A DNA stretch of 64,000 nucleotides, from assembly GCF_000026545.1 (NCBI RefSeq), contig NC_011601.1; one strand, given 5' to 3'. The notes under the pieces are model-generated. The model saw only the letters and a list, made by a program, of their open reading frames with translations. It was not told the DNA's origin and made no database searches. A program made the position numbers and the translations under genes. Positions 1 through 51,630 of the stretch are shown here, piece after piece. The DNA is from Escherichia coli O127:H6 str. E2348/69 (GTDB lineage: Bacteria; Pseudomonadota; Gammaproteobacteria; Enterobacterales; Enterobacteriaceae). Positions within the stretch are counted from its first letter, which is position 1. Each line of letters opens with the position of its first letter.

Positions 1-1348
<1,348 letters not shown>

Positions 1349-1416
1349 CCTTAAAGAAGCGTACTTTGAAGTGCTCACACAGATTGTCTGATGAAAATGA
1401 GCAGTAAAACCTCTAC

Positions 1417-1493
<77 letters not shown>

Positions 1494-1535
1494 AATTTGC
1501 ACCGCAAATTTGAAGAGGTTTTAACTACATGTTAT

Positions 1536-1611
1536 GGGGCTATAGCTCAGCTGGGAGAGCGCCTGCTTTGCACGCAGGAGGTCTGCGGTTCGATCCCGCA
1601 TAGCTCCACCA
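1536..1611 (+). tRNA. alaT: tRNA-Ala (anticodon TGC) in the 16S-23S spacer
   Basis: 76-nt sequence GGGGCTATAGCTCAGCTGGGAGAGCGCCTGCTTTGCACGCAGGAGGTCTGCGGTTCGATCCCGCATAGCTCCACCA. Confidence 0.95.
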
Positions 1612-1794
1612 TCTCTGTAGTGATTAAATAAAAAATACTTCAGAGTGTACCTGCAAAGGTTCACTGCGAAGTTTTGCTCTTTAAAAATCTGGATCAAGCT
1701 GAAAATTGAAACACTGAACAACGAGAGTTGTTCGTGAGTCTCTCAAATTTTCGCAACACGATGATGGATCGCAAGAAACATCTTCGGGTTGTGA

Positions 1795-4698
<2,904 letters not shown>

Positions 4699-4796
4699 AC
4701 AACGCCGAAGATGTTTTGGCGGATTGAGAGAAGATTTTCAGCCTGATACAGATTAAATCGACAGGTCATAACGTGACGTGTTGATAAAACAGAATT

Positions 4797-4916
4797 TGCC
4801 TGGCGGCCTTAGCGCGGTGGTCCCACCTGACCCCATGCCGAACTCAGAAGTGAAACGCCGTAGCGCCGATGGTAGTGTGGGGTCTCCCCATGCGAGAGTA
4901 GGGAACTGCCAGGCAT
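4797..4916 (+). rRNA. rrfA: 5S ribosomal RNA
   Basis: 120-nt sequence TGCCTGGCGGCC...GGGAACTGCCAGGCAT matching enterobacterial 5S. Confidence 0.95.
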
Positions 4917-4930
4917 CAAATTTAGCGAAA

Positions 4931-4957
4931 GGCCCAGTCGGAAGACTGGGCTTTTTT
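4931..4957 (+). terminator. Rho-independent terminator of the rRNA operon
   Basis: GC-rich hairpin GGCCCAGTC-GGAA-GACTGGGC followed by TTTTTT. Confidence 0.8.
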
Positions 4958-5018
4958 GCGTTGGTGCGGAATAAATACCGGATGCGACGCTGGCGCGTCT
5001 TATCCAGCCTACTTTTGC

Positions 5019-5546
5019 TTATCCGTCCTGCTTTTGCATCCACTCCACCACAAAATCAGCCAGCCCCTCAACATCATTAATATCCAGTAACGCGACATCA
5101 AGATTAAGCGGCACATCACTGGCTACAGCAATAACATGCCTGTCTATCACTAATTCTTCCGGTCGATGTCCGGCTCCATCGCGAAACAGCACAATCTTTG
5201 CGATCTCTTCATGCTTAAACCCTTCGACCAGAATCAAATCCAGCTTTGAGGTATCCATTCGACTTGCGAGAAAATGTAGATCCAGCTCTTCTTCGTCTGG
5301 TGTTTCCGTCATCAAGGCCCATCGTTGCTGGCTGGCAACGATGGTTTGTGCCGCGCCAGCCTTGCGCAGCTCATAGCTATCTTTGCCTGGCTTATCAACA
5401 TCCATATCATGGTGCGTATGCTTAATCAGCCCTGGACGGATCCCTCTGGCGCATAATGCCGGGATCAGTTTTTTCAAAAGCGTAGTTTTTCCGGTACCAC
5501 TCCACGCGGCAAAGGCGAGTAACGGTATCATCGTTTTTCCTGCCAT
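5019..5546 (-). CDS. mobB: Molybdopterin-guanine dinucleotide biosynthesis adapter protein MobB (P-loop GTPase)
   Basis: 175-aa ORF with Walker A (SGTGKTTL); recognised MobB sequence; overlaps mobA start as in the mobAB operon. Confidence 0.9.
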
Positions 5547-6112
5547 CGGGCAAGCTCCTCTGGCGTATTCACGTTTATAAATGCCTCTTTACGATCGCTG
5601 AAATCAACCGCATGACCGCCAGCCAGACGCATAAATGCCATAACCCGGCGTTCTCCTGCTTGCAGATATTCCAGTAATAAAGGCTCAATTGCGCGGTTTA
5701 CCAGAGCAATAGTCGGGTGATCGCGTTCACCGTCGTGGACCCACACGACAGGCGTATCTTTGCGCTGATGATTAAGCCGGACGGCTAAATCATGGGGAAT
5801 GTAAGGCGTATCGCACGGGCAAAACAAAAACCACTCACCCGCTTCCTGCTGCATTACTGAAAGCATTCCTGCCAGAGGGCCAGGGTAATCCGCCAGTGAA
5901 TCTTCAATCACTTTCAGACCGCTTACCTGATAGATTTCCTGATGACGATTAGCATTAACCACGACGTGAGAAAGCTGCGTCATAAGCGCGTCAGCGACAT
6001 GCTGCCATAATGGTTTGCCGTTTAATTCAAGCAATCCTTTATCTACGCCGCCCATTCGTCTGGCTTTACCGCCCGCCAGCACAACGCCTGTTATCGTCGT
6101 CATCAGATTCAC
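5528..6112 (-). CDS. mobA: Molybdenum cofactor guanylyltransferase MobA
   Basis: 194-aa ORF beginning [22 protein letters not shown] (nucleotidyltransferase glycine-rich motif); conserved position upstream of mobB. Confidence 0.9.
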
Positions 6113-6181
6113 CGATATCGCCTCTTTTATTGTGGGATTGACCCTGCTAACGTGTCTGTCTCAAGAGTAAGGAGCATTACT

Positions 6182-6451
6182 ATGAAATGTAAACGTCTGA
6201 ATGAAGTTATTGAACTCCTCCAGCCAGCCTGGCAAAAAGACCCAGACCTTAACCTGCTGCAATTTTTGCAGAAACTGGCGAAAGAGTCAGGTTTTGACGG
6301 CGAACTGGCGGATTTGACGGATGACATTCTGATCTATCACCTGAAAATGCGTGATTCCGCGAAAGATGCGGTGATCCCGGGTTTGCAGAAAGATTATGAA
6401 GAAGATTTCAAAACGGCGCTATTACGCGCACGTGGCGTAATTAAAGAGTAA
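6182..6451 (+). CDS. yihD: DUF1040 family small protein YihD
   Basis: 89-aa product from the internal ATG at 6182 ([14 protein letters not shown]...) preceded by AAGGAG Shine-Dalgarno; the longer 99-aa track ORF is an upstream extension. Confidence 0.8.
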
Positions 6452-6527
6452 AAGCTTGTAAGCGGCGCAACCAAAATCATCGTGAAATGATATCCTTCAT
6501 CATTCGTAATGTTTTCCGGATGATGGG

Positions 6528-7514
6528 ATGAACAACAGCGCTTTTACTTTCCAGACACTACACCCGGATACCATCATGGACGCTCTGTTTGAGCATGGGA
6601 TTCGGGTGGATTCCGGTCTTACCCCGCTTAACAGCTATGAAAACCGTGTCTATCAATTTCAGGACGAAGATCGTCGACGTTTTGTCGTCAAATTTTATCG
6701 CCCTGAACGTTGGACAGCCGATCAAATCCTCGAAGAACATCAATTTGCGTTGCAGCTGGTTAACGATGAAGTTCCGGTCGCAGCACCTGTGGCCTTTAAT
6801 GGTCAGACTTTATTGAACCATCAGGGATTTTATTTCGCTGTTTTTCCAAGCGTCGGTGGTCGCCAGTTCGAAGCTGATAATATCGATCAGATGGAAGCGG
6901 TTGGGCGTTATTTAGGGCGTATGCACCAGACGGGGCGCAAACAGCTTTTTATCCATCGCCCGACCATCGGTTTGAATGAATATCTCATTGAGCCACGCAA
7001 GCTGTTTGAGGACGCTACACTGATACCTTCCGGGTTGAAAGCGGCATTTCTGAAAGCGACAGATGAGCTGATCGCCGCCGTTACAGCACACTGGCGGGAA
7101 GATTTCACCGTTCTGCGGCTACATGGAGACTGCCACGCCGGGAATATTCTCTGGCGCGATGGTCCAATGTTTGTTGATCTGGATGATGCACGTAATGGTC
7201 CGGCTATTCAGGATTTGTGGATGTTGCTCAATGGCGATAAAGCCGAGCAGCGGATGCAACTGGAAACTATTATTGAAGCTTATGAAGAATTTAGCGAGTT
7301 CGACACCGCTGAAATCGGACTGATTGAACCTTTACGCGCCATGCGTTTGGTTTATTATCTTGCCTGGCTAATGCGGCGTTGGGCTGATCCCGCGTTCCCG
7401 AAAAATTTCCCGTGGTTAACCGGGGAAGATTACTGGCTGCGACAGACGGCGACTTTTATAGAACAGGCAAAAGTTCTACAAGAACCCCCTTTGCAATTAA
7501 CACCTATGTATTAA
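6528..7514 (+). CDS. srkA: Stress response Ser/Thr protein kinase SrkA (YihE/RdoA)
   Basis: 328-aa ORF with kinase-like catalytic motifs (HGDCHAGNILW, VDLDD); conserved position upstream of dsbA. Confidence 0.9.
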   Translation: MNNSAFTFQTLHPDTIMDALFEHGIRVDSGLTPLNSYENRVYQFQDEDRRRFVVKFYRPERWTADQILEEHQFALQLVNDEVPVAAPVAFNGQTLLNHQGFYFAVFPSVGGRQFEADNIDQMEAVGRYLGRMHQTGRKQLFIHRPTIGLNEYLIEPRKLFEDATLIPSGLKAAFLKATDELIAAVTAHWREDFTVLRLHGDCHAGNILWRDGPMFVDLDDARNGPAIQDLWMLLNGDKAEQRMQLETIIEAYEEFSEFDTAEIGLIEPLRAMRLVYYLAWLMRRWADPAFPKNFPWLTGEDYWLRQTATFIEQAKVLQEPPLQLTPMY

Positions 7515-7530
7515 TCGGAGAGAGTAGATC

Positions 7531-8157
7531 ATGAAAAAGATTTGGCTGGCGCTGGCTGGTTTAGTTTTAGCGTTTAGCGCATCGGCGGCGCAGTATGAAG
7601 ATGGTAAACAGTACACTACCCTGGAAAAACCAGTTGCTGGCGCGCCGCAAGTGCTGGAGTTTTTCTCTTTCTTCTGCCCGCACTGCTATCAGTTTGAAGA
7701 AGTTCTGCATATTTCTGATAACGTGAAGAAAAAACTGCCGGAAGGCGTGAAGATGACTAAATACCACGTCAACTTCATGGGGGGTGACCTGGGCAAAGAG
7801 CTGACTCAGGCATGGGCTGTGGCGATGGCGCTGGGCGTGGAAGACAAAGTCACAGTTCCGCTGTTTGAAGGCGTACAAAAAACCCAGACCATTCGTTCAG
7901 CATCTGATATCCGCGATGTATTTATCAACGCAGGTATTAAAGGTGAAGAGTACGACGCGGCGTGGAACAGCTTCGTGGTGAAATCTCTGGTCGCTCAGCA
8001 GGAAAAAGCTGCAGCTGACGTGCAATTGCGTGGTGTTCCGGCGATGTTTGTTAACGGTAAATATCAGCTGAATCCGCAGGGTATGGATACCAGCAATATG
8101 GATGTTTTTGTTCAGCAGTATGCTGATACTGTGAAATATCTGTCCGAGAAAAAATAA
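7531..8157 (+). CDS. dsbA: Periplasmic thiol:disulfide oxidoreductase DsbA
   Basis: 208-aa ORF with signal peptide and CPHC active site ([13 protein letters not shown]). Confidence 0.95.
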
Positions 8158-8176
8158 TTCAATGTAAATTACATAA

Positions 8177-8205
8177 AGCCCGTGAATATTCACGGGCTTT
8201 TTTTA
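8177..8205 (+). terminator. Rho-independent terminator downstream of dsbA
   Basis: Hairpin AGCCCGTGAATATTCACGGGCT followed by a T-run. Confidence 0.75.
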
Positions 8206-8311
8206 TTATTAAATAAATATAAATACATTCTGATAATGCGTCCTGCTGCTGGACATTATTTCAGCATAAGTGGATATTCAAAGTTTTGCTGTTTTATCAG
8301 GGAATATTTAT

Positions 8312-9742
8312 ATGATACGTAAGTCAGCTACAGGTGCTATTGTTGCGTTAGCCGTAATCTGGGGTGGTGGCACATGGTACACAGGTACGCAAATTCAACC
8401 TGGTGTCGAAAAGTTTATTAAAGGTTTTAACGATGCTAAAAAGAAAGGTGAACATGCCTACGATATGACGTTAAGTTATAAAAATTTTGACAAAGGCTTT
8501 TTTAATTCCCGTTTTCAAATGCAAATGACATTTGATAACGGTGCACCCGATCTCGATATCAAGCCAGGCCAGAAAATTGTATTTGATGTGGATGTTGAGC
8601 ACGGTCCGTTGCCCATCACAATGTTAATGCGTGGTAATGTCATCCCCGCACTGGCAGCGGCAAAAGTGAAATTAGTGAATAATGAACTGACACAACCGCT
8701 ATTTATCGCCGCGAAAAATAAATCGCCCGTGGAAGCGACATTGCGATTCGCGTTTGGTGGCTCATTCTCCACGACATTAGATGTTGCCCCTGCAGAGTAT
8801 GGAAAGTTTTCTTTTGGTGAAGGCCAGTTTACTTTTAATGGTGATGATAGTTCATTGTCTAACCTGGATATTGAAGGCAAAGTCGAAGATATTGTTCTGC
8901 AATTTTCACCAATGAACAAAGTAACGGCGAAAAGTTTTACCATTAATTCTCTGGCGCGATTAGAAGAAAAGAAATTTCCGGTTGGTGAAAGCGAGTCGAA
9001 ATTTAATCAGGTTAATATTATCAACCAAGGGGAAGTCGTTGCCCAAATCGATGCTTTCGTTGCAAAAACCAGGCTGGATCGCGTTAAAGACAAAGATTAT
9101 ATCAATGTCAATCTGACCTACGAACTTGATAAGTTAATAAAAGGGAATCAGCAACTCGGTAGTGGTGAGTGGTCATTGATTGCTGAATCTATTGATCCAT
9201 CAGCGGTGCGCCAATTTATCATCCAGTATAACATTGCGATGCAGAAGCAGCTTGCTGCACACCCCGAGTTAGCAAACGATGAAGTTGCTCTGCAAGAAGT
9301 GAATGCTGCATTGTTCAAAGAGTATTTACCGTTATTACAAAAAAGTGAGCCGACCATTAAACAACCGGTAAGATGGAAGAACGCACTCGGCGAACTAAAG
9401 GCCAATCTGGATATCAGTATTGCCGACCCAGCCAAATCTTCATCATCCACAAACAAAGATATTAAATCGCTCAATTTTGATATGAAGTTACCGCTTAATG
9501 TCGCCACAGAAACCGCAAAACAGCTTAATTTATCTGAAGGGATGGATGCGGAAAAAGCGCAAAAGCGGGCTGATAAGCAAATCAGTGGGATGATGACATT
9601 AGGTCTGATGTTACAGTTAATCACGATTGACAACAATACCGCCTCGCTGCAACTGCGTTATACACCGGGTAAAGTTGTTTTTAACGGACAGGAGATGAGC
9701 GAAGAAGAATTTATGTCTCGTGCCGGACGTTTTGTTCATTAA
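8312..9742 (+). CDS. yihF: DUF945 family protein YihF
   Basis: 476-aa product from the ATG at 8312 (MIRKSATGAIVALAV..., N-terminal hydrophobic segment); the track ORF starts 14 codons upstream. Synteny dsbA-yihF-yihG-polA. Confidence 0.8.
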   Translation: MIRKSATGAIVALAVIWGGGTWYTGTQIQPGVEKFIKGFNDAKKKGEHAYDMTLSYKNFDKGFFNSRFQMQMTFDNGAPDLDIKPGQKIVFDVDVEHGPLPITMLMRGNVIPALAAAKVKLVNNELTQPLFIAAKNKSPVEATLRFAFGGSFSTTLDVAPAEYGKFSFGEGQFTFNGDDSSLSNLDIEGKVEDIVLQFSPMNKVTAKSFTINSLARLEEKKFPVGESESKFNQVNIINQGEVVAQIDAFVAKTRLDRVKDKDYINVNLTYELDKLIKGNQQLGSGEWSLIAESIDPSAVRQFIIQYNIAMQKQLAAHPELANDEVALQEVNAALFKEYLPLLQKSEPTIKQPVRWKNALGELKANLDISIADPAKSSSSTNKDIKSLNFDMKLPLNVATETAKQLNLSEGMDAEKAQKRADKQISGMMTLGLMLQLITIDNNTASLQLRYTPGKVVFNGQEMSEEEFMSRAGRFVH

Positions 9743-9782
9743 AATACTCACTCGCCTCTGCTCATTCAGAGGCGAGTAAAAC

Positions 9783-10715
9783 TTACTTTTCCTGCCGCTG
9801 TGATGACATCAACGATGTCAGAAGCCGGTCTTTTTCCTGCCACAATGAGTTCAGCCATTGCTGAAAATGGCGCTTAAAGCTTTTGTCATTGATGTAGTCG
9901 CCATGTAACTCATCGGCAATAGGCTGTAAATCCACATGTACGACAATTCGCGTCAGTTTACCGCTTAACATATCGAAGAACGGCTGACGGTTATTGTCCG
10001 GATAACACAGCGTAACATTAAGCAGTTTATCGAATTGTTTACCCAGTACATTTAGCGCCATTGCAATGCCTGCCGCCTTTGGTGGCAACAAGTTTTGAAA
10101 AGTGGAGTGGGTTTGCTGATGTTTTTCTTGCGTGAAACGGGAGCCTTCAACGAAATTGACAATAGTGGTGGGATGCAGGCGAAACTTTTCACAAGAACGC
10201 CGAGTGGTTTCAACATCTTTACCACGTCGCTCCGGATGACGTAATAAATAAGCGCGGGAATAACGCTTCATAAACGGCATATCCAGCGCCCAGCACGCCA
10301 GGCCAAGAAAAGGCACCCAGGCCAGCTGCTGCTTGAGGAAATATTTATTCATCGGAATGTGCTTACGAAACAGCACGCACAGTACGACAATATCTGCCCA
10401 ACTACGGTGGTTACAAATAAGCAGATACCAGTTCTTCTTACTTAACCCTTCCAGCCCGTGAACTTCCCATTGCAGGTATGGGTTCAGATGCAGTAATACC
10501 GCCAGACATTCACACCAGCAATACATCATAAAATCACAAAAACGCGAAACCTTTCGCCAAATGACTGGCACAGGTAGCAATAGTTTTACAATCCCGGCAA
10601 TGATGATCGGGACGGAACAAAAAATAGTGACCAAAATGGTCAATACGATACTCAGCAAAAGGGTTATCGCAGCGAGTATTCTCGTCATAATGAATTTATT
10701 CAAAAGGTTAGCCAT
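9783..10715 (-). CDS. yihG: Acyltransferase YihG (PlsC-like lysophospholipid acyltransferase family)
   Basis: ORF with HXXXXD acyltransferase motif ([12 protein letters not shown]) and N-terminal transmembrane segments; start ambiguous (10739 or 10715). Confidence 0.8.
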
Positions 10716-41249: not shown

Positions 41250-44200
41250 TTACACCTTTTCCACATTCACAAGGAAGGACTTAAACTCCGGCGTCTGCGT
41301 GTTCGCATCACCGACGAATGGCGTCAACGTATTGGCAATAAAGCCTTTTTTCGCAACACCTTCATAGCCCCAGTGAATCGGAATACCGATGGTATCGATA
41401 TCTTTGCCGTTTGCTTTCAGCGTGCGAATACGTTTGGTCACTACCGCTTTGGCTTTGATATAGCCACGGTTGGAGGAGACTTTCACAGTATCGCCCTGGG
41501 CAATGCCAAGTTTATTCGCCAGCGACTCCCCGATTTCCACAAACTGCTCTGGTTGCAAAATCGCATTCAACAGCGCGTGTTTGGTCCAGTAGTGGAAGTG
41601 CTCGGTCAGACGATAGGTGGTTCCGACATACGGGAACTTATCGGCTTTACCCAATGCTTCGGCGTCGTCTTTAAAGATACGCGCAGCCGGGTTCGAGATA
41701 ACGTTTGGATGCAGCGGGTTAGTTCCCAGCGGCGTTTCAAACGGCTCGTAGTGTTCCGGGAACGGACCTTCCGCCATCTTATCGAGGGCAAACAGACGTC
41801 CCATGCCTTCCTGCTGCATGATAAACGGCCCTACGCCGCTGCCCGGAGGCGCTGCGCTGTAGTCCGGAATATCCCAGCCGGTCCACTTAGTGCCGTCCCA
41901 TTTCAGCAACTGACGCTTCGGATCCCATGGGTTACCCTGCGGATCTGCGGAGGCGCGGTTATACAGAATGCGGCGGTTTAGCGGCCATGCCCATGCCCAG
42001 CCCAGCGTGTTACCGAGGCCAGACGGATCGGCGTTATCACGACGCGCCATCTGGTTGCCTTCCGGCGTCCAGCTACCGGCGAAAATCCAGCAGCCACAGG
42101 AGGTTGTACCGTCATCGCGCAGTTGGGCGAACGAGCTAAGTTGTTGGCCTTTCTTGACGATAACCGCACCGGTTGCCGGGTCGGTAATATCGGCCAGCGC
42201 TTTGCCGTTGCTCTCCATTGCCACTTCTTCTGAAGATGGCTCATGCGGAATGGCGTAGTTCCAGGTCATGTTCAGCACCTGGTCCGGGTTCGCGCCACCC
42301 TGTTCGGCATACATCTTGCGCAAGCGCAGGAAGATACCGGAGAGGATCTCGCCATCAGTCAGCGCAATCCCCGGGGCGTCCGCACCTTTCCAGTGCCACT
42401 GTAACCAGCGACCTGAGTTAACGATAGAACCGTTCTCTTCCGCGAAGCAGGTCGATGGTAGACGGAACACTTCGGTCTGGATCTTCGACGAGTCAACTTC
42501 GTTCAGCTCACCGTGGTTCTGCCAGAAGTTAGAGGTTTCAGTGTTCAGCGGGTCGATAGTCACGAGGAATTTCAGCTTCGACAGACAGCCGATCACTTTG
42601 TTTTTGTTCGGGAATGAGGCAACAGGGTTAAAGCCCTGGCAGATATAGCCATTGACCTTGCCTTCTTTCATCATCTCGAAGTATTGCAGGACGTCGTAGC
42701 CTTTATCCCACTTCGGCAACCAGTCAAAGCCCCAGCTATTTTCCGCCGTCGCTTTATCACCAAAGAAGGCCTTCATCATAGAGACGAAGAATTTCGGGTA
42801 GTTGCCCCAGTAGTTTACCTGGCCTTCCAGCAGCGGTTTTGGCGTGTTGGCGGTAAGGTAGGTTTGCAGATCGGTCTGCTTCTCGCTTGGCAGCGTCATG
42901 TAACCTGGCAGGCTCTGCGACAGCAGCCCCAGGTCGGTCAGCCCCTGAATATTGGAGTGACCGCGCAGGGCGTTAACGCCGCCGCCAGCCATCCCCATAT
43001 TGCCGAGCAGCAACTGGATCATCGCCATCGTACGGATGTTCTGCGCACCGATGGAGTGTTGCGTCCAGCCGAGCGCGTAAAGGAACGAGGCAGTTTTATC
43101 GTGAGCACTGGTTTCGGCGATGTATTCGCAGACTTTCAGGAATGCGTCTTTTGGCGTACCACAGATGTTTTCAACCACATCTGGCGTGTAGCGGGAAACG
43201 TGCTGTTTCAGCAAGTTCCACACGCAACGTGGATGTTGCAGGGTAGTATCGCGTTTGGCGAAGCCGTTTTCGTCCAGTTCGTAAGTCCAGGTGGACTTAT
43301 CGTACTTGCGTTTTTCCGCGTCGTAGCCGGTGAACAGGCCATCTTCAAAGCCGTAATCCTCACGCACGATCAGGCTAGCGTTGGTATAGGCTTCGGTGTA
43401 TTCGCGGTTGAATTTTTCATTGTTCAGCAGGTACAGCAATACGCCTGACAGGAAAGCAATGTCAGTACCGGAACGGATAGGGGCATAGTAGTCAGCCACC
43501 GCCGCTGTACGTGTAAAGCGAGGATCGATCACAATCAGCTTCGCGCCGTTGTGAATTTTGGCTTCCATCGCCCAGCGGAACCCGACCGGGTGAGCTTCAG
43601 CGGCGTTACCGCCCATCACCACGACGAGGTTGGCATTCTTGATGTCGACCCAGTGGTTGGTCATCGCACCGCGACCAAATGTTGGAGCAAGACTTGCTAC
43701 CGTTGGTCCGTGTCAGACACGCGCCTGGTTGTCGACCGCGAGCATACCCAGCGCGCGGGAGAATTTTTGCGTTAAATAGCCGGTTTCGTTACTCGACGCG
43801 GAAGCACACAGCATCCCGGTGGAGAGCCAGCGGTTAACAGTCACGCCTTCGGCGTTTTGCGCAATGTAGTTCGCATCGCGGTCTTCTTTCATCAGTTTGG
43901 CGATGCGATCAAACGCCTCTTCCCAACTGATTTGCTGCCATTTATCAGAACCTGGCGCACGGTATTCCGGAAACTTCAGGCGGCTTTCGGAGTGGATGAA
44001 ATCCACCAGGCCAGCGCCTTTCGGACAAAGTGCTCCGCGGTTGACCGGGTGATCCGGGTCACCTTCGATATGGAAGATAGATGCTTTGGCGTTTTTTGCT
44101 CCGTCACCGAGGCTGTACATCAACAGCCCACAGCCTACGGAACAATAGGTGCAGGTATTACGGGTTTCGCGGGTGCGCAGCAGTTTATACTGCCGGGTTT

Positions 44201-44493: not shown

Positions 44494-45330
44494 GTGAAAA
44501 AAACACAGCAAAAAGAAATCGAGAATGTGACAAATATCACAGGTGTTCGTCAAATTGAGTTATGGCGGCGTGATGATTTACAACACCCACGGTTAGATGA
44601 GGTGGCGGAAGAAGTTCCCGTTGCGCTGGTCTACAACGGCATTTCGCATGTGGTGATGATGGCGTCGCCCAAAGACCTTGAGTACTTTGCGCTCGGTTTT
44701 TCGCTTTCCGAAGGAATTATCGAAAGCCCGCGCGATATCTTCGGCATGGATGTCGTTCCTTCCTGTAATGGCCTGGAAGTACAAATTGAGCTTTCCAGCC
44801 GCCGCTTTATGGGGTTGAAGGAACGCCGCCGGGCGCTGGCGGGACGTACGGGCTGTGGCGTATGCGGTGTAGAACAGCTTAACGATATCGGTAAACCGGT
44901 GCAGCCGCTGCCGTTCACCCAGACGTTTGATCTCAACAAACTGGATGATGCATTACGTCATCTCAATGATTTCCAGCCAGTGGGGCAACTGACTGGTTGT
45001 ACTCACGCCGCTGCATGGATGTTGCCATCTGGCGAACTGGTCGGCGGGCATGAAGACGTGGGTCGCCATGTGGCGCTGGACAAACTGTTAGGCCGCCGGT
45101 CACAAGAAGGGGAAAGCTGGCAGCAAGGTGCGGTGCTGGTTTCCAGCCGTGCCAGTTATGAAATGGTGCAAAAGTCGGCGATGTGCGGCGTAGAGATTTT
45201 GTTTGCGGTGTCTGCCGCGACCACACTTGCTGTAGAAGTGGCTGAGCGCTGTAATCTGACGCTGGTGGGCTTTTGTAAACCGGGTCGGGCAACGGTTTAT
45301 ACCCATCCGCAGCGTTTGGTTCATAATTAA
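44494..45330 (+). CDS. fdhD: Formate dehydrogenase sulfurtransferase/accessory protein FdhD
   Basis: 278-aa ORF with conserved CGVCG motif; divergently transcribed from fdoGHI-fdhE. Confidence 0.93.
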
Positions 45331-45640
45331 AGAAATACCGCAATTCTGATTCTGGATTGCGGTTTTATTTTTCTATTAAATAATCCTCAATATATTATTC
45401 AGCATTTAAATAATAATTTCACCACAATAAATTATCTCGTTAATTCCGGTTTATATCGATATACTCCGGTCGCATTAATCCTTTAAGAATTAATCATTAT
45501 TTATATAAGACATTTTGTTTTAATCATCGCGTCAATAAATAAATGTTTCTGATGAGTGAATGCAAATAACAAACCTTGCACCGGTTGTAAAAACAGCAAT
45601 GTATTTTCAATAGTGGGTGATGGATTATGAGTATTGAAAA

Positions 45641-47476
45641 ATGAGTACATTACAGTTACCTGGCAGTTCATATTCTACTGAAGTTAATTTAAACGGCTTA
45701 ATTGAGGTGCTCAGTAAGCACCTTTACTCTACCCCCGTGGTCGCCGTGCGCGAGCTGGTGCAGAACGGACACGATGCGATCGTGCGCCGCAGGATTGAGC
45801 AGCCCGATGCGCCAAAGGATAACCAAATTCGTGTGGTGGCAGACGTGGCGAAGTCCACCATCACCATTACCGATACCGGTGCGGGTTTGACAGAAAGCGA
45901 AATTCACGGCTTCCTGGCAACAGTGGGCGTGGGTTATACCCGAATGTTGCGCCAGCAGGATGACAACACCGGTTTAATTGGTATGTTCGGCCTTGGTTTC
46001 TTGTCAGCATTTGTACTTGCAAAAGAGGTCACGGTGTTGACCACATCCTGGCAAACGCCGGATCAGAGCTGGAAATACCACTCTACCGACGGGCAAAAAT
46101 ATACCGTTACGCCGCATCAGTCCTCGGAAACGGGAACGCAGGTGATTCTGACGCTCAAAGAAGAGTACAGCCATCTGGCGAGTAACAATTTGCTGAACCG
46201 CGTTCTTTCCCGCTACTGTGTATTGCTGCACGAACCGGTCTATGTCGGCGATGCCAGCGAGCCGGTAAATAAACTTCAACCACCGTGGCGTGAAGTTGCC
46301 CCCGAAGGCGTAACCATACACCGCGCGCTGGTACAGCGTAAAAATCTCGCCTTTGCCGCCCAGTTTGAATCCTCCTTCGAACCGATTTGCACCATTCCGG
46401 TGGTGCCAGCGGGAATGAGCGACGCGGTTGGGATTTTATGGATTCAGGATGGCGCGACCTACGGCACCAGCGATAACCGCAACCTGTCGTTGTTTTTGCG
46501 CGGCATGTTACTGGATGATGAAGCGCGTGAGTTGTTACCGCCCTGGGCCGGATTTATTGGCGGCGTGATTGAGTCATCGAAACTGACGCCGACGGCGAGC
46601 AGGGAAGATCTCCAGCGGGATGCAACCTGGGTTGCGGTACAGGAGGCGTTAAAAGAGGCGCTGATTTCTGGTTTGTCCGATCTCGCACAAAATCAGCCAG
46701 AAATCTGGCGGCGGGTATTAATGCGCCACAACGAAGCGTTGCTGGGTGCGGCCTTGTGTGATGACCGTCTGTTTGATTTGCTCAAAGATCGCTTGCAGGT
46801 GCCAACGTCAAAAGGGGCGCTGCTGGCGAAGGATTTACGCGTTAATAACAGCATTCATATTCTGTTAAGCCGCGACGGCGGTTTTGAAGAGATGTTGTTC
46901 CATATTCTGCAACGGCCTGTAGCCCGTGGCGATCGCTATGCGGTGGTGCCATTTTTACGCCGTTGGGCGCTGTTATATCACTGCCGGATTGTCGAAGTCG
47001 GTACGCAAACGGGTAATGAGCAGTTGTTCAGCCTGGCAGAATTACCCAAAGAGCAGGTGGCTTATCTGGAAGAGCATCTCTGCGACGGCGAGCAATTAAT
47101 TATCTCACGCTTCGAACCCGCCGTTTTACCGTTAGTGGTTACACCAGACCGCGAAGCAGAATTAAAACAAATTCTCGAACAGGATGACGCAGATAAACGC
47201 ATCAGTACCGCAGCGTTAATGCTGGCGCGGCAATTTACCTCGCAAATCCAAAAATCTAAAACTTCAAGTCTGTATATCAACCTTAATAACCCCTGTGTCA
47301 TGCAACTGGTGACGGCCTTACAACACCATCAACAGCCAGCGGCAGCATTACGGTTATTAAAATCGCTGAAAGTGATTTTGTGCTCCAGCGGTAATAAAGA
47401 ACAGCAGTGGGATTTACACCAGGCACTGGAAGATTTTACTCAGGTTATTCCTGTCTTAATTAATCAAGGAAAATAA
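45641..47476 (+). CDS. Hsp90/HtpG-family paralog (GHKL ATPase), full length
   Basis: 611-aa ORF aligning by eye with HtpG through the N-terminal ATPase domain: N-box RELVQNGHDA (HtpG RELISNASDA), G1 ITDTGAGL (ISDNGVGM), G2 LIGMFGLGFLSAF (LIGQFGVGFYSAF), and beyond. Not the housekeeping htpG (wrong locus, divergent). Confidence 0.8.
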   Translation: MSTLQLPGSSYSTEVNLNGLIEVLSKHLYSTPVVAVRELVQNGHDAIVRRRIEQPDAPKDNQIRVVADVAKSTITITDTGAGLTESEIHGFLATVGVGYTRMLRQQDDNTGLIGMFGLGFLSAFVLAKEVTVLTTSWQTPDQSWKYHSTDGQKYTVTPHQSSETGTQVILTLKEEYSHLASNNLLNRVLSRYCVLLHEPVYVGDASEPVNKLQPPWREVAPEGVTIHRALVQRKNLAFAAQFESSFEPICTIPVVPAGMSDAVGILWIQDGATYGTSDNRNLSLFLRGMLLDDEARELLPPWAGFIGGVIESSKLTPTASREDLQRDATWVAVQEALKEALISGLSDLAQNQPEIWRRVLMRHNEALLGAALCDDRLFDLLKDRLQVPTSKGALLAKDLRVNNSIHILLSRDGGFEEMLFHILQRPVARGDRYAVVPFLRRWALLYHCRIVEVGTQTGNEQLFSLAELPKEQVAYLEEHLCDGEQLIISRFEPAVLPLVVTPDREAELKQILEQDDADKRISTAALMLARQFTSQIQKSKTSSLYINLNNPCVMQLVTALQHHQQPAAALRLLKSLKVILCSSGNKEQQWDLHQALEDFTQVIPVLINQGK

Positions 47477-47477
47477 A

Positions 47478-49784
47478 ATGGATACATGGGAGTGGTACAA
47501 CAAATATAGTCAAGAGTTGCGTGATGCCGGGCAAGAATATATTCCGCAGCTTATTGATGATTTTTCAGAAAGTGTTTTGCACCTACAAATAGAAAAATGT
47601 GATTCGCTATTGCCGGAAATGAAAGCACTGAATCAAGTCGCCAAAAATCCGTGGCTGGAAATATTTATTGGTCACTGGGAAATGCGTCATCGCCTGACTA
47701 ACTATGAAGAAGGTGAAAAGGTGCTGCCAGACGTGGTAGCGCTGTTTGAAAAAGCGCATCGGGAAGAGGCGAAAGATTGCCCGCAATCTATCTGCGTTAC
47801 CCAGGATTTATCAGCCTGCTACGAAAATATTGACGCACCAGGCTGGGCGAATGAACGCATGGCGGTGTGTGAAGAAACCATCGCGCGCATTGATCCGACC
47901 TGGAGCTGTTTTCAGTGTTTGTCCACTGAATATGCCAGCGCACTGATAGATTCCAAAAGAACAGAGGAGGCACTGGCTTATCTGGATCGGCAAATCGACG
48001 CAGTTAAAGCAGCCGGGAAAGATGATATTGATCCATTACTTTATACTCGCGCCGATATTCTGATTGAACTTCAGCGTTATGATGAAGCACGCAAATTGAT
48101 TGATGAGCTGACAGAAGCCAATGATTACTGGGGCCGCGACCGCATTAGTAATCACCTAAAAAAACTGTACATCATGGCGTTATGCGGGCAGGACGAAGAA
48201 GTCTGGGAGGAATTACCGCGTTGGTCCGATCTGACTCCGCATTCATGGGGGTCATGGCTGAAAATCATTACTGTGTTACTTCCCCGTCATCCACAAAGAA
48301 ACAACTGGCAACTGGCGCGCATCATCCAGAAAATGCTGGAGCAACGTTCACAGGCCGGGGCGCATCGAAAAGTGGTTAATCTGGCAAAACTACAAATCAC
48401 CCTGGCGCTGGAGCGTGAATCCGTCTGGGTTGCCAAAATAGCGATGAAACTGGCCCAGCGACACATGCCAAAATTACGCGCGTTACTGGGCGTCGATCGC
48501 GAGTTTCTCGAACTTAGCGAAAAAATCGCCACCAAAGAAGCAGAGTTGCTTGCTCGTCCGGTTGTAGAAGTACCTGAAAATAGCGACGAAGAAACGCAGC
48601 CAGATCCAGAAAAAGACGTCGAAATATTCCGCCGCGCTTATCTGAACACACCAGACGATGCAGAGTTACTGGGCAAACTGGTCAATGCGTTAAATGCCTG
48701 TAATGCGATTAATGAGTCAATTGAACTTCTGCAACGCTATGTTGAAAGCCACCTCCATGAAGATAATGGTCTTTGCTTCGATCTGTTGGATTTATTGCTC
48801 CACCGTGACGATCTGCAAACCATTGAGCACCTGGCGAAGCAGTATGAACAGGCGGGGCTGCTACATATGGCCTTGTGGTTCCGGGCGCGAGTGATCAACC
48901 AACAGGAAGACTGGAGTGAACTGGAGTCGATTGGACAACAGTTGCTGCAAAACGAAAAAGGGCGTGAGTGGGTTGGCGTTTATCGCATGTGCTCCTGGGC
49001 AGCACAAAAACAGGAAGCCTGGGATCGACAGCTGGATTATTTACAACAATTGCAGCAACTGATGATTAGCCGTGAAGAAGATATTCGTAATCTCCAGTGG
49101 GATATCATGGCGACCGCCAGCATCCTGCAACAATGGGATTTGGTTCGTGCTATTGCTGCTGAACTGGAAATCGAACTCACGGAAGGTGAAGGTTTTATTG
49201 ACGAAAAATGGGGGCTGCTAAACATTCGCTTCCGGGAAAATTATGAATACCGCTATTACTATGCTCAACGTATTGGGCCGGTAACCGCAAGGATCATTGA
49301 GCCAACTTACCGGACCGATTATCCGCAACATGTTGATGAGGTTGTGGTATTCGATGCAGAAATGTTGAATACCCGACCAGAGGATGAGGAAGAGCAGAAG
49401 AATTTCACTCCGCTTTATGGGTGCCTGAAAACCATTATCCCGACCGAATACGGCGAGTCCTGGTTCTGCGAAGGTGTCATGCCTGGTGAAGAAGAGTTTA
49501 ATACTTTCCGTGAGGCGCTCCGTGAACGAAACTGGTACTACTGGAGCAACAGTAATGACGACTATACGTTAACGGACAGTCATCAAGGAGAAGGCGCTGA
49601 GCCGCTGTCTGCATTCTATTTTGTTATCAGTGCGCCGCGTTCAGTTTCTAAAGGTGATATCGACAAGACCTTGCACGAATTGACCGCTGACTGGAAACAT
49701 CCGTTGTGCTGGTGGCGTCTTGCCAAAGAAGCCGGGGCGAATGAAGAGAAACATGCTGCTATTGCCGAGAGATATGGAATGTAA
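47478..49784 (+). CDS. Large hypothetical protein (768 aa), predicted alpha-helical/TPR-like with Cys cluster; translationally coupled to the Hsp90 paralog
   Basis: ATG 1 nt after the upstream stop, with an AAGGAAAA Shine-Dalgarno inside the upstream gene; helix-rich composition, Cys-rich stretch (DCPQSIC...SACYEN...AVCEET...WSCFQC), acidic segment (PENSDEETQPDPEKD); no catalytic motif recognised by eye. Confidence 0.6.
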   Translation: MDTWEWYNKYSQELRDAGQEYIPQLIDDFSESVLHLQIEKCDSLLPEMKALNQVAKNPWLEIFIGHWEMRHRLTNYEEGEKVLPDVVALFEKAHREEAKDCPQSICVTQDLSACYENIDAPGWANERMAVCEETIARIDPTWSCFQCLSTEYASALIDSKRTEEALAYLDRQIDAVKAAGKDDIDPLLYTRADILIELQRYDEARKLIDELTEANDYWGRDRISNHLKKLYIMALCGQDEEVWEELPRWSDLTPHSWGSWLKIITVLLPRHPQRNNWQLARIIQKMLEQRSQAGAHRKVVNLAKLQITLALERESVWVAKIAMKLAQRHMPKLRALLGVDREFLELSEKIATKEAELLARPVVEVPENSDEETQPDPEKDVEIFRRAYLNTPDDAELLGKLVNALNACNAINESIELLQRYVESHLHEDNGLCFDLLDLLLHRDDLQTIEHLAKQYEQAGLLHMALWFRARVINQQEDWSELESIGQQLLQNEKGREWVGVYRMCSWAAQKQEAWDRQLDYLQQLQQLMISREEDIRNLQWDIMATASILQQWDLVRAIAAELEIELTEGEGFIDEKWGLLNIRFRENYEYRYYYAQRIGPVTARIIEPTYRTDYPQHVDEVVVFDAEMLNTRPEDEEEQKNFTPLYGCLKTIIPTEYGESWFCEGVMPGEEEFNTFREALRERNWYYWSNSNDDYTLTDSHQGEGAEPLSAFYFVISAPRSVSKGDIDKTLHELTADWKHPLCWWRLAKEAGANEEKHAAIAERYGM

Positions 49785-49881
49785 GCGGCACTAACGTTTG
49801 TCCGACTCTGGTGTAGCTGAACGGTGAAATCCCAGGTCGGACAACAAACCGTACTAACGGGGGGCCCAAAAATTGTGTCTC

Positions 49882-51630
49882 TCACCCCTGACGAAGTAAC
49901 GCCATAAACGCTTCATACCCTGTTAACCTGGCAATAGTTTCCGCCGGATGCTGACACAGGACGCTGGCAAGATAGCTGAATATTTTCAACTCGTGACGCG
50001 CATCGGCGGCGGCACAGGCGATCAACACGTGGTTAATGACTTCGTTATTCACCTCGATCGGGTGGGCGAGGGTAATAAAAAATCCACGAAAACGTCGCTC
50101 CTGCTCGCTCCAGCAATGTGGGATGGCGAGGCGATTAACAATCAGGTTTTCACCTTCGCCTTCGCGGGCGATGATGCGTTGTGCTTCATCGGTGGTAATA
50201 TGGTGTTGCGTCACTAATTGCGCACAAATTTGCCGGGTAATATGTTGCCAGCTTTCACCGCGTACATTCGAATAATGAAAACTTCCGGGGGCAGAGAAAA
50301 AACGCTCCGGTTGCTGGCGAATAAATGCCGTCGCCAGAAAATGTTTTATTTGTTCGATACCGGCAGCCGTAATGATATTTTTTACGGTGATGTAATTATT
50401 TACCGCGTCATCCAGTAAATAATGGCTGTTGTTAATGATCAATAACGGCTCAATTTCTTCGCGAATGGCAACAAGTTCGCTTAAGCTACGGGCAATAATC
50501 ACCCGACAATTTAAAACATCGCGCTCAATGGCGAGCTGATTAATAGTGGCAATCGCGTTCTGATCAGAGAGCAAAATGATCGGCTGGCGTTCGTTTTGAT
50601 GCCGTTCCAGCGCACAGGCAAAATACAAACCGATCAGATCGCTGTCGAAAAGGGGAATATCGAGTTGTTCACGCAGTAGCGTAATAAAGTGCAGACTCAT
50701 ATCAAAGGCCGCAGGCCAGGCGGCTTTCAGGTTATTCATGCTGCTTTGGCGGTGCTCACCAATCCACACCGGCGCGGCAAGGCAACGTAATAAATGCCCG
50801 GTAATATTCTCAACCAGCTGCGTATCAATAATATTCAATGACGCGATGCCCGGCACCCTTTGCAGCAACCCCTGCACATTATCGGCAGAAATTACCTGTG
50901 CTTGCTGATGCTGTTTCTCTATCAAACCTGTCAGGGTTCTTACAGCGTTATCACCAAGAAACATGCCGCTTTGTTCAACGATTTGTTTTATCTCGTCACC
51001 GGGATATTGCGGCCACTCATCGGTCAGTTGATTACGCAGGGCGTAAATAGCCAGTATCAGGCTGGAGAGATAATCACCCTGCATAAGCGGCAAGCGGTGT
51101 TGGTTGTCGCAGGCTGTGGATAAATGCTGAAGGTTGTCTCGTGTTACGCCAGCCAGAGGAATTAAAAACGGATCTTTGCGCAGCAAGTTCGCCAGCAAAA
51201 TAACGCGTTTCTCTTCTGTCTCATCAATGAAATGGCCCAAACCGGGGCGACTGGCCAGGCAGCAAGTGCGCTCATAACGTTGCTTTAATCGTGGCAGACG
51301 CTCTGCGACCCACGTTTCTGGCAAATTAAGCGCCGAGGCGAGCTGCGCACGGGGAGTAAAGGTATTCAGTAATAACAACGCCAGCAGCCGATCGTCGTTA
51401 TCGTGCTTTTGCAGCAACTGAAAAAAGCTGCGGCGCTCGAAGATTTCCAGCTGATAGCCCGCACTACCACTGGCAGAAATGCGGGCTTTGCCGTTAAGGG
51501 TAAAGTTGAGATAGTCAATATCACGCAGTATGGTCCTGCCAGAAACGCCAGTCTGTTGCGCCAGCTCACCAGGCGTGCGCGGCTGTTGCTCCAGCAGATC
51601 GACAATCTTTAACTGGCGTTCGTTTAGCAT
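49882..51630 (-). CDS. frvR: Transcriptional regulator FrvR (HTH plus PRD/PTS regulatory domains)
   Basis: 582-aa ORF with N-terminal HTH (…ELAQQTGVSGRTILRDIDYL…); last gene of the frvABXR operon. Confidence 0.88.
   Translation of the reverse strand: MLNERQLKIVDLLEQQPRTPGELAQQTGVSGRTILRDIDYLNFTLNGKARISASGSAGYQLEIFERRSFFQLLQKHDNDDRLLALLLLNTFTPRAQLASALNLPETWVAERLPRLKQRYERTCCLASRPGLGHFIDETEEKRVILLANLLRKDPFLIPLAGVTRDNLQHLSTACDNQHRLPLMQGDYLSSLILAIYALRNQLTDEWPQYPGDEIKQIVEQSGMFLGDNAVRTLTGLIEKQHQQAQVISADNVQGLLQRVPGIASLNIIDTQLVENITGHLLRCLAAPVWIGEHRQSSMNNLKAAWPAAFDMSLHFITLLREQLDIPLFDSDLIGLYFACALERHQNERQPIILLSDQNAIATINQLAIERDVLNCRVIIARSLSELVAIREEIEPLLIINNSHYLLDDAVNNYITVKNIITAAGIEQIKHFLATAFIRQQPERFFSAPGSFHYSNVRGESWQHITRQICAQLVTQHHITTDEAQRIIAREGEGENLIVNRLAIPHCWSEQERRFRGFFITLAHPIEVNNEVINHVLIACAAADARHELKIFSYLASVLCQHPAETIARLTGYEAFMALLRQG

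What the first reader, a model, noticed from the sequence alone, without database searches (positions are those of the whole stretch)
45641..47476. Hsp90 paralog retains catalytic residues but has a divergent N-box (ELVQNGHDA rather than ELISNASDA)
The Mg-coordinating Asn and adenine-contacting Asp positions of the Bergerat fold appear conserved, as does the Glu preceding them, so ATP hydrolysis is probably retained. The motif substitutions (Q/G/H in place of S/A/S) and the different C-terminus indicate an old paralog rather than a recent duplicate of htpG. Full length comparable to HtpG suggests middle and dimerisation domains are present.
Basis: partly seen in the sequence, partly recalled or inferred. 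Interest (0 to 1): 0.6.

Follow-up and report, generated by a model that had tools for sequence, protein, structure and literature searches.

The report
Second Hsp90 with a dedicated partner
This E. coli strain carries, besides normal HtpG, an old second Hsp90-type ATPase that across many bacterial phyla almost always sits directly upstream of one uncharacterised 770-residue repeat protein, which makes that protein a testable candidate for a bacterial Hsp90 helper, something the field says bacteria lack.

Summary
ORF 45641-47476 (611 aa) carries RELVQNGHDA and every Hsp90 catalytic residue. It is 26% identical to E. coli HtpG, so it is an old paralog, and it falls below the NCBIfam cut-offs for both HtpG and PRK14083. 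The "divergent" N-box is not special to this protein: RELVQNAHD[SA] is the consensus of the whole non-HtpG Hsp90 clade.

The gene is translationally coupled (1-nt gap, Shine-Dalgarno (SD) ribosome-binding site inside its last codons) to a 768-aa protein at 47478-49784.
- In 75 of 76 loci with enough upstream DNA, the partner lies directly downstream of this Hsp90 clade. These loci span Gamma-, Beta- and Alphaproteobacteria, Acidobacteria, Chloroflexi and Actinobacteria. Separate look-ups add a Nannocystaceae (myxobacterial) MAG and three metagenome contigs.
- No third gene is conserved.
- The partner has an N-terminal helical module with four invariant Cys, a canonical TPR block, and a family-specific α/β domain with no close structural match.
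- Both genes are under strong purifying selection (dN/dS 0.05-0.08).
- The pair is ancestral at the fdhD-frvR locus and survives in 254 of 5426 complete E. coli genomes.

I found no functional study of either gene. The best reading is a dedicated two-protein Hsp90 machine, but no interaction has been shown.

The parts
45337..45373 (+). fdhD intrinsic terminator (10-bp stem, T-run). It separates the cassette from fdhD.
   Evidence: sequence
45319..49881 (.). Segment with no counterpart in K-12. Homology to K-12 ends at 45318 (last codons of fdhD) and resumes at 49882 (frvR stop). K-12 has yiiG here instead.
45627..45644 (+). Five-codon leader ORF (MSIEK*) preceded by the SD-like GGTGATGG. Its TGA overlaps the ATG of the Hsp90 gene (ATGA). 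In Superficieibacter a 1-nt indel puts this upstream ATG in frame with the main ORF.
   Evidence: read from sequence; function not tested
45641..47476 (+). Non-HtpG (group-C-type) Hsp90-family ATPase, 611 aa
45749..45778 (+). N-box R37-A46 (RELVQNGHDA): catalytic Glu E38, Mg-binding Asn N42, D45
45872..45886 (+). G1 box D78-T-G-A-G82 (adenine-contacting Asp)
45980..45997 (+). G2 box G114-M-F-G-L-G119 (phosphate-binding glycine loop at the end of the lid)
46589..46606 (+). Middle-domain catalytic loop P317-T-A-S-R321-E322. It aligns with NVSRE of HtpG and NLSRE of TRAP1.
46811..47473 (+). C-terminal ~220 residues. Not alignable to HtpG directly; homologous through intermediate paralogs. The extreme tail is not conserved (no EEVD-like motif).
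47478..49784 (+). Partner protein, 768 aa (WP_000382016.1, annotated 'tetratricopeptide repeat protein'). The SD AAGGA lies inside the last codons of the Hsp90 gene, with a 1-nt gap between stop and start.
47478..48542 (+). Partner N-module (residues 1-355). This is the only part kept in the short (352-358 aa) variants and it holds most of the invariant residues.
47778..47918 (+). Two invariant Cys motifs: C101-P-Q-S-x-C106 and C144-x-x-C147. Candidate metal or redox site.
   Evidence: geometry not examined
48606..49163 (+). Canonical TPR block (residues 377-562), following a low-confidence linker at residues 360-376
49212..49781 (+). Family-specific C-terminal α/β domain (residues 579-768)
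49798..49844 (.). 9-bp perfect inverted repeat between the partner stop and the convergent frvR stop. Possible shared terminator; there is no T-run.

Best explanation
SHOWN. The ORF encodes an anciently diverged, non-HtpG Hsp90-family protein with a complete GHKL ATP-hydrolysis apparatus. It forms a strictly two-gene, translationally coupled module with a ~770-aa protein built from an N-terminal helical module with four invariant Cys, a TPR block and a unique α/β domain. The module is conserved across at least six bacterial phyla, is under strong purifying selection, and coexists with ordinary HtpG.

INFERRED. The two proteins work as one dedicated chaperone machine.
- The Hsp90 paralog dimerises through its C-terminal domain and runs an ATP-driven clamp cycle like HtpG or TRAP1.
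- The partner docks on it through its invariant N-module, which is the only part retained in short variants.
- The partner acts as a built-in co-chaperone or adaptor. Its TPR block and C-terminal domain select or hold a particular client or sense a condition, and the Cys motifs may bind metal or respond to redox.
- Docking does not use the eukaryotic EEVD-tail/TPR-clamp mode, because the Hsp90 tail is not conserved.
For: Identity as an Hsp90.

Catalytic residues invariant in 117 sequences.

Full-length homology by transitive profile alignment.

Synteny:
- 75 of 76 loci with enough upstream DNA have the Hsp90 gene directly upstream on the same strand.
- The same holds in Xanthomonas, P. aeruginosa, a Nannocystaceae MAG and three metagenome contigs.
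- Only these two genes are shared across 25-26 genera.

Coupling: 1-nt gap with an internal SD in E. coli; 1-nt gaps or 4-nt overlaps elsewhere.

Clade structure: Hsp90 genes with a partner form a clade of 70 that excludes the second tier (NJ tree). A second-tier gene lacks the partner.

Purifying selection: dN/dS 0.05 (Hsp90) and 0.07-0.08 (partner), against 0.03-0.05 for fdhD.

Partner architecture: high-confidence models with pLDDT 91.8 and 92.9; generic TPR scaffolds as fold matches.

Expression: P. aeruginosa PA1069 is detected in proteomes and is noted as apparently operonic with the Hsp90 gene (PMC4053335; PMC5541441).
Against: - No physical interaction is shown, and no multimer model could be run.
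- The Hsp90 C-terminal tail is unconserved, so the only well-understood Hsp90-TPR docking mode is excluded.
- One genome (Thorsellia) has the partner with no Hsp90 gene anywhere in the 10.3-kb locus.
- PA1069 mRNA falls about 4-fold at 46 °C (PMC4957987), so this is not a classical heat-shock operon.
- Conserved gene order is equally compatible with the partner being the client.
- Some more distant non-HtpG Hsp90s carry TIR-like extensions, so the wider clade is not purely proteostatic.
- The spatial arrangement of the four Cys was not checked.
Confidence: 0.5

Rival explanations
1. The partner is the dedicated client rather than a helper. The large solenoid protein, or its C-terminal α/β domain, carries the real and still unknown activity. 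The Hsp90 paralog exists to fold, hold or switch it, much as some eukaryotic Hsp90 clients depend on continuous chaperoning.
For: The evidence is the same synteny and coupling. The partner evolves faster than the Hsp90 (30-40% against 51-62% identity to the E. coli copy in the same genomes). The C-terminal domain is unique to this family.
Against: Short variants keep only the N-module and drop the TPR block and C-terminal domain, so any activity in the C-terminal domain is dispensable for the pairing. The invariant residues of the C-terminal domain are mostly Gly, Pro and Ala, not an obvious active site.
Confidence: 0.2
2. The pair is a conflict or anti-phage system. A TPR protein senses an invader and a GHKL ATPase transduces the signal to an effector, by analogy with other ATPase-plus-repeat-sensor immune modules.
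For: The pair is present in only 254 of 5426 complete E. coli genomes. Related second-tier Hsp90 paralogs carry C-terminal extensions resembling TIR or nucleoside-deoxyribosyltransferase domains (P0361: PADLOC TIR effector 1.9e-10, Pfam Nuc_deoxyrib_tr 0.007).
Against: - PADLOC gives no hit for the partner and only weak GHKL-domain hits for the Hsp90.
- No nuclease, TIR, protease or pore domain is recognisable.
- Flanking genes are ordinary metabolic, transport or regulatory genes and differ in every genus.
- The module is found in over 20 Xanthomonas species-level genomes, in many Stenotrophomonas, and in both PAO1-type and PA7 P. aeruginosa, which is unusual for defence genes.
- In Escherichia it is ancestral at a fixed locus and has been lost, not gained on an island.
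- dN/dS is as low as for a housekeeping gene.
Confidence: 0.1
3. The gene is simply a redundant stress chaperone, and its neighbour is functionally unrelated.
For: It belongs to the Hsp90 family and has intact catalytic residues.
Against: Adjacency in 75 of 76 loci across phyla, with translational coupling and no other conserved neighbour, is not compatible with an unrelated neighbour. At 26% identity to HtpG, simple redundancy is unlikely.
Confidence: 0.05

Closest known systems
E. coli HtpG (bacterial Hsp90, 'group A' / hsp90A; NCBIfam PRK05218)
   Same: Same three-domain family. The GHKL N-domain has the E/N/D, DxGxG and GxxGxG motifs, and the middle-domain catalytic Arg loop (SRE) is present. 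Length is similar (611 against 624 aa).
   Different: Only 26% identity. It scores 198 bits against a cut-off of 371. The N-box reads VQNGHD rather than ISNASD, the lid is shorter, and the last ~220 residues are not directly alignable. It coexists with HtpG and has an obligate gene partner, which HtpG lacks.
'Group C' / hsp90C bacterial Hsp90 paralogs (Stechmann & Cavalier-Smith 2004; Chen et al. 2006, PMC1525184; Press et al. 2013, PMC3708813)
   Same: It is a deep non-A lineage with short proteins and a patchy distribution, and it co-occurs with hsp90A. Press et al. report that A and B never co-occur and that C is spread by transfer and may have a distinct role.
   Different: Assignment to C rather than B is inferred, not tested, because no reference sequences were available. 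Those papers describe phylogeny only; the parts I read and searched do not mention a function or a partner gene.
NCBIfam NF010683 / PRK14083 'HSP90 family protein'
   Same: This is the best-scoring curated model. The alignment covers residues 13-571, nearly the full length.
   Different: The score is 287.7 bits against a cut-off of 455. Nine other first- and second-tier representatives also fall below the cut-off at 241-336 bits, so this clade is outside that equivalog.
Eukaryotic Hsp90 with TPR co-chaperones (Hop/Sti1, PP5, CHIP, FKBP51/52, Tah1)
   Same: An Hsp90 ATPase is paired with a TPR-containing protein.
   Different: The eukaryotic TPR clamp binds the conserved C-terminal MEEVD. Here the tail is unconserved. 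The partner's conserved part is a Cys-bearing N-module, not the TPR block. The partner shows no specific similarity to any known co-chaperone. The pairing is encoded as an operon.
TRAP1 (mitochondrial Hsp90)
   Same: It is the best PDB sequence match (1.9e-30) and shares Gly in the N-box (ELISNGSDA).
   Different: The alignment covers only residues 10-359. TRAP1 belongs to group A (PMC1525184).

Membership tests
Hsp90 superfamily (GHKL ATPase plus Hsp90 middle domain) | Bergerat-fold motifs: N-box E..N..D, G1 box DxGxG, G2 box GxxGxG | tested here: met
   E38, N42, D45, D78/G80/G82 and G114/G117/G119 are invariant in 117 sequences. Pfam HATPase_c_3 2.9e-09.
Hsp90 superfamily (GHKL ATPase plus Hsp90 middle domain) | Middle domain with a catalytic Arg loop that completes the ATPase site | tested here: met
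   PTASRE aligns with NVSRE of HtpG and NLSRE of TRAP1. R321 is present in 116 of 117 sequences. Pfam HSP90 covers residues 274-353.
Hsp90 superfamily (GHKL ATPase plus Hsp90 middle domain) | C-terminal dimerisation domain | tested here: inconclusive
   There is no direct alignment beyond about residue 390. Homology is supported transitively through second-tier paralogs, whose profile aligns with HtpG 2-622 of 624. No structure model of this protein was made, and dimerisation is untested.
Hsp90 superfamily (GHKL ATPase plus Hsp90 middle domain) | Measured ATPase or chaperone activity | not testable with these tools
   This needs purified protein.
HtpG proper (NCBIfam PRK05218 equivalog, group A) | Whole-protein score at or above the curated cut-off (371 bits) | tested here: not met
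   198.4 bits, aligned over residues 14-385 only.
NCBIfam PRK14083 'HSP90 family protein' equivalog | Whole-protein score at or above the curated cut-off (455 bits) | tested here: not met
   287.7 bits. Relatives score 241-336 bits.
Bacterial Hsp90 'group C' (hsp90C) | Placement in the C clade of a tree that includes the published reference sequences | not tested
   The reference sequences (for example S. coelicolor HTPG2 NP_625688.1 and B. fragilis HTPG2 YP_097520.1) could not be fetched. My NJ tree shows only that the partner-linked clade is monophyletic and separate from the second-tier paralogs and from HtpG.
Bacterial Hsp90 'group C' (hsp90C) | Co-occurs with hsp90A, and has a patchy distribution consistent with horizontal transfer | tested here: met
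   htpG is in 5424 of 5426 E. coli genomes. The module is scattered over at least six phyla. The criterion comes from PMC3708813 Text S1.
Eukaryote-type Hsp90/TPR co-chaperone pair | Conserved acidic C-terminal peptide (MEEVD) on the Hsp90 for the TPR carboxylate clamp | tested here: not met
   The tails differ in every genus (…LINQGK, …TQLLAR, …PQEQSQA and others) and the last ~40 columns have no conserved position.
Eukaryote-type Hsp90/TPR co-chaperone pair | Physical binding and modulation of the Hsp90 cycle | not testable with these tools
   No multimer prediction or experiment was available.
Known or candidate anti-phage defence systems (PADLOC-DB 2.0) | Match to a defence-system protein model, a recognisable effector domain, or a defence-island context | tested here: not met
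   The partner has no hits. The Hsp90 has only weak hits to the GHKL domains of TmtA and REase_II. No effector domain is seen. Neighbourhoods are ordinary and variable.

The most novel reading that the evidence does not exclude
The 770-aa partner is a genuine, dedicated co-chaperone or adaptor of a bacterial Hsp90. That would be the first bacterial Hsp90 co-chaperone, using a docking mode unrelated to the eukaryotic EEVD-TPR clamp and possibly gated by a Cys-based metal or redox site. It would contradict the current statement that Hsp90 co-chaperones 'are found only in eukaryotes' (PMC9478669).
Probability: 0.35. Interest if true: 0.75.

Novelty: new variant of a known kind. Interest (0 to 1): 0.55.

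Why it matters
Bacterial Hsp90 is treated as a co-chaperone-free minimal system. PMC9478669 says co-chaperones "are found only in eukaryotes". The non-HtpG Hsp90 lineages have been seen in phylogenies since 2004-2006, and I found no report of their function.

This locus shows that one such lineage almost always travels with a single large TPR-containing protein. That gives the field a concrete, genetically tractable hypothesis. The pair exists in EPEC E2348/69, in P. aeruginosa PAO1 as PA1068-PA1069, and in Xanthomonas and Stenotrophomonas.

K-12 has lost the pair, which may be why it has gone unnoticed in the E. coli chaperone literature.

If the partner turns out to be only a client, or the pair has a narrow role, this remains a modest annotation improvement: "ATP-binding protein" and "TPR protein" become a defined Hsp90-paralog module.

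Tried and rejected
- **PADLOC** on both proteins gave nothing useful.
- **Pfam** on the partner and its 46-member alignment gave only marginal TPR hits and no family.
- **NCBIfam** on the partner gave nothing.
- **Foldseek** of the whole partner model against the PDB returned generic TPR scaffolds such as IFT-A, Ctr9, OGT, Ski3 and APC/C.
- **AFDB50 search** of the C-terminal domain returned only the same family, all unannotated.
- **PDB profile search** with the partner alignment found only designed or consensus TPRs in residues ~380-540.
- **Conserved EEVD-like tail**: searched for and absent.
- **Conserved third gene**: searched for across 26 genera and none found. The apparent extra clusters were overlapping out-of-frame ORFs inside the two genes.
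- **Promoter**: the simple sigma-70 scan found no convincing promoter upstream, and I did not identify a heat-shock promoter by eye.
- **Literature searches** for PA1068/PA1069, Hsp90xo, htpG2/HtpG-like, bacterial Hsp90 co-chaperones and Hsp90 in conflict systems returned only incidental omics mentions.
- **"Recently acquired island" idea**: rejected, because related Escherichia and Superficieibacter have fdhD-Hsp90-partner-yiiG-frvR.
- **Group B versus C assignment**: the published reference sequences were not retrievable.
- **Cys geometry**: model coordinates are not exposed to scripts, so Cys-Cys distances could not be measured.
Full report
**1. What is at the coordinates**

The window is the chromosome of enteropathogenic E. 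coli O127:H6 E2348/69 (100% identity). ORF 45641-47476 (+) encodes 611 aa and is RefSeq WP_000105780.1, annotated "ATP-binding protein".

The protein is clearly an Hsp90:
- NCBIfam PRK14083 "HSP90 family protein": 287.7 bits over residues 13-571.
- NCBIfam HtpG (PRK05218): 198.4 bits over residues 14-385.
- Pfam: HATPase_c_3 plus a piece of HSP90.
- Best solved structures: TRAP1 (1.9e-30) and HtpG (7e-28), aligned over residues ~10-359.

Both NCBIfam scores are below the curated cut-offs (455 and 371 bits), so it belongs to neither named equivalog.

**2. Catalytic machinery**

Identity to E. coli HtpG is 26% over 364 residues. I aligned 44 cluster representatives (35-47% identical to the query) and 73 copies from species genomes.
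- Invariant positions: R37, E38, Q41, N42, D45, D78, G80, G82, G114, G117, G119 and E322.
- R321 is present in 116 of 117 sequences.

These correspond to the catalytic Glu and Mg-Asn of the N-box, the adenine-binding Asp of the DxGxG box, the glycine loop, and the middle-domain Arg that completes the Hsp90 active site. The assignment rests on the alignments plus established GHKL/Hsp90 knowledge. ATP hydrolysis is therefore very probably retained, but this is inferred.

One correction: the adenine-contacting Asp is D78, not the Asp in the N-box.

**3. The N-box is a clade signature**

Across 89 full-length non-HtpG paralog representatives the motif is RELVQNAHD[SA] with little variation. TRAP1 also has Gly at the third substituted position. 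The substitutions mark the whole lineage and say nothing special about this gene.

**4. Domain extent**

Direct sequence or profile alignment to HtpG/TRAP1 ends near residue 390. The evidence for the rest is transitive:
- The protein aligns end to end with second-tier paralogs, for example residues 9-608 against P0340.
- The second-tier profile aligns with E. coli HtpG over residues 2-622 of 624, and several of those proteins match the NCBIfam HtpG model end to end, for example positions 7-603 of 614.
- Permissive profile-profile alignments give first tier against second tier E = 7e-133 over 601 columns, and second tier against HtpG E = 2.4e-55 over 574 columns.

The C-terminal domain is thus homologous by a transitive argument. 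Dimerisation itself is inferred.

**5. The conserved partner**

One nucleotide after the stop codon, with an AAGGA Shine-Dalgarno inside the last codons, begins a 768-aa ORF at 47478-49784 (WP_000382016.1, "tetratricopeptide repeat protein").

- *Homologues.* Full-length homologues at 28-41% identity occur in Cronobacter, Klebsiella, Pseudomonas aeruginosa, Xanthomonas, Stenotrophomonas, Acinetobacter, Rhodocyclaceae and Nannocystaceae.
- *Genome scan.* A scan of one genome per GTDB species found relatives in 200 stretches, and 80 loci were kept.
- *Adjacency.* In 75 of the 76 loci with enough upstream DNA, the Hsp90 paralog lies directly upstream on the same strand. Outside the close enterobacterial relatives (Escherichia, Superficieibacter) it is 51-62% identical to the E. 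coli protein. These loci span Gamma-, Beta- and Alphaproteobacteria, Holophaga (Acidobacteria), a Chloroflexi MAG and Kitasatospora (Actinobacteria).
- *Independent look-ups.* These gave the same arrangement in Xanthomonas, P. aeruginosa, a Nannocystaceae MAG and three metagenome contigs.
- *Other neighbours.* Across 26 genera only these two genes are shared.
- *Exception.* In Thorsellia the partner has no Hsp90 gene anywhere in the 10.3-kb locus.

**6. Clade structure**

An exhaustive representative search shows about 50 full-length clusters at 35-52% identity. Scores then drop to about 250 bits and about 30% identity. In a neighbour-joining tree rooted on HtpG, the first tier plus the genome copies form a clade of 70 that excludes all 39 second-tier sequences.

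All five first-tier members whose contigs I examined have a partner gene downstream. Of two second-tier members:
- one is followed by transketolase;
- the other is followed by an unrelated or at best very remotely similar 416-aa protein.

**7. Partner anatomy**

The AlphaFold model is confident (pLDDT 91.8):
- an α-solenoid over residues 1-359;
- a low-confidence linker at 360-376;
- a second solenoid over 377-562;
- an α/β domain over 579-768.

*TPR block.* The 377-562 block is canonical TPR by sequence. The whole solenoid matches only generic TPR scaffolds.

*N-module.* Most invariant residues lie in the first 160 residues. They include C101-P-Q-S-x-C106 and C144-x-x-C147. Two short natural variants (352 and 358 aa) consist of the N-module alone and keep both Cys motifs. 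The N-module is therefore the constant core of the partnership.

**8. Evolution in Escherichia**

Other Escherichia lineages and Superficieibacter have the order fdhD-Hsp90-partner-yiiG-frvR. K-12 has fdhD-yiiG-frvR. E2348/69 has lost yiiG, and homology to K-12 breaks at 45318 and 49882.

The pair is therefore ancestral at this locus and has been lost from most E. coli. It survives in 254 of 5426 complete genomes, while htpG is in 5424.

Against Escherichia sp. and E. whittamii, dN/dS values are:

| Gene | dN/dS |
|---|---|
| Hsp90 paralog | 0.05 |
| Partner | 0.07-0.08 |
| fdhD | 0.03-0.05 |

Both genes are functional.

**9. Literature**

The deep non-A bacterial Hsp90 lineages were defined phylogenetically (PMC1525184; PMC3708813). 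Press et al. noted that hsp90A and hsp90B never co-occur, and that hsp90C is scattered, probably transferred, and may have a distinct role. By that logic this gene is hsp90C. I could not test this with reference sequences.

The P. aeruginosa pair is PA1068-PA1069. PA1069 appears only incidentally in omics tables:
- "appears operonic" with the Hsp90 gene and is Ca2+- and biofilm-associated (PMC4053335);
- about 4-fold down at 46 °C (PMC4957987);
- AmrZ-activated (PMC3946381);
- detected in surface-adhesion and pull-down proteomes.

I found no functional study. Current reviews state that Hsp90 co-chaperones exist only in eukaryotes (PMC9478669).

**10. Mechanism**

- *Shown:* the identity of both proteins, the intact catalytic residues, obligate gene pairing, translational coupling, purifying selection and the absence of other conserved components.
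- *Inferred (confidence about 0.5):* a two-protein chaperone machine in which the partner's N-module docks on the Hsp90 paralog and the remaining domains supply client or signal specificity. The eukaryotic EEVD-clamp mode is excluded, because the Hsp90 tail is unconserved.
- *Rivals:* the partner is the client (0.2); a conflict or defence module (0.1), which gets some support from TIR-like extensions on more distant paralogs but is contradicted by the genomic context, the species-wide presence in several genera and the lack of an effector; an unrelated neighbour (0.05).

**11. Verdict**

The gene is a member of a known but unstudied Hsp90 lineage. The more useful finding is its near-universal pairing with an uncharacterised TPR-containing protein. 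This is a new variant of a known kind, of moderate interest, and directly testable in EPEC or P. aeruginosa.

Noticed in passing
proteins P0339, P0340, P0343, P0345, P0353, P0361, P0371, P0375, P0376, P0378, P0379, P0381, P0384, P0385: A set of more distant non-HtpG Hsp90 paralogs (840-910 aa) share a ~230-aa C-terminal extension. It looks TIR-like or nucleoside-deoxyribosyltransferase-like: P0361 hits the PADLOC TIR effector model at 1.9e-10 and Pfam Nuc_deoxyrib_tr at 0.007, and P0345 hits PycTIR weakly. These may be Hsp90-ATPase/effector fusions of conflict systems.
   Followed up: partly
L093:2577-3635 and L095:6293-7369: Short (352 and 358 aa) versions of the partner consist only of the N-terminal module and keep both Cys motifs. 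They sit directly downstream of Hsp90 paralogs P0292 and P0246.
   Followed up: yes
window 45627-45644: A five-codon leader ORF (MSIEK*) with a good SD-like sequence has a stop that overlaps the Hsp90 start codon (ATGA). It is conserved in Escherichia. In Superficieibacter a 1-nt indel puts the upstream ATG in frame with the main ORF. This suggests termination-reinitiation or a mis-set start codon.
   Followed up: partly
L013, L014, L015, L016 against window 45319-49881 and K-12 locus L008: The fdhD-frvR interval exists in three states: both the cassette and yiiG (other Escherichia, Superficieibacter), yiiG only (K-12), and cassette only (E2348/69). These are two independent deletions from one ancestral arrangement.
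   Followed up: yes
L075 (Thorsellia anophelis), 1-10304: A full-length partner gene has no Hsp90 paralog anywhere in the 10.3-kb locus. The upstream 520-aa ORF is unrelated to Hsp90. This is the only exception among 76 loci.
   Followed up: partly
L096:3877-5127: A second-tier Hsp90 paralog (P0314) is overlapped at its 3' end by a 416-aa gene with no Pfam match. That gene shows only a marginal resemblance (E = 0.011) to the partner N-module and lacks the Cys motifs. Other non-HtpG Hsp90 clades may have their own coupled partners.
   Followed up: partly
window 41250-43664 (-): The 804-aa ORF is the part of the annotated 3051-nt formate dehydrogenase alpha-subunit gene that the mechanical ORF list reports. 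The annotated gene reads through an in-frame stop codon, presumably the known selenocysteine TGA. This is ordinary.
   Followed up: no
window 49798-49844: A perfect 9-bp inverted repeat (TTGTCCGAC / GTCGGACAA, 29-nt loop) lies between the convergent partner and frvR genes. It has no T-run and may be a shared terminator or a remnant of the yiiG deletion junction.
   Followed up: no
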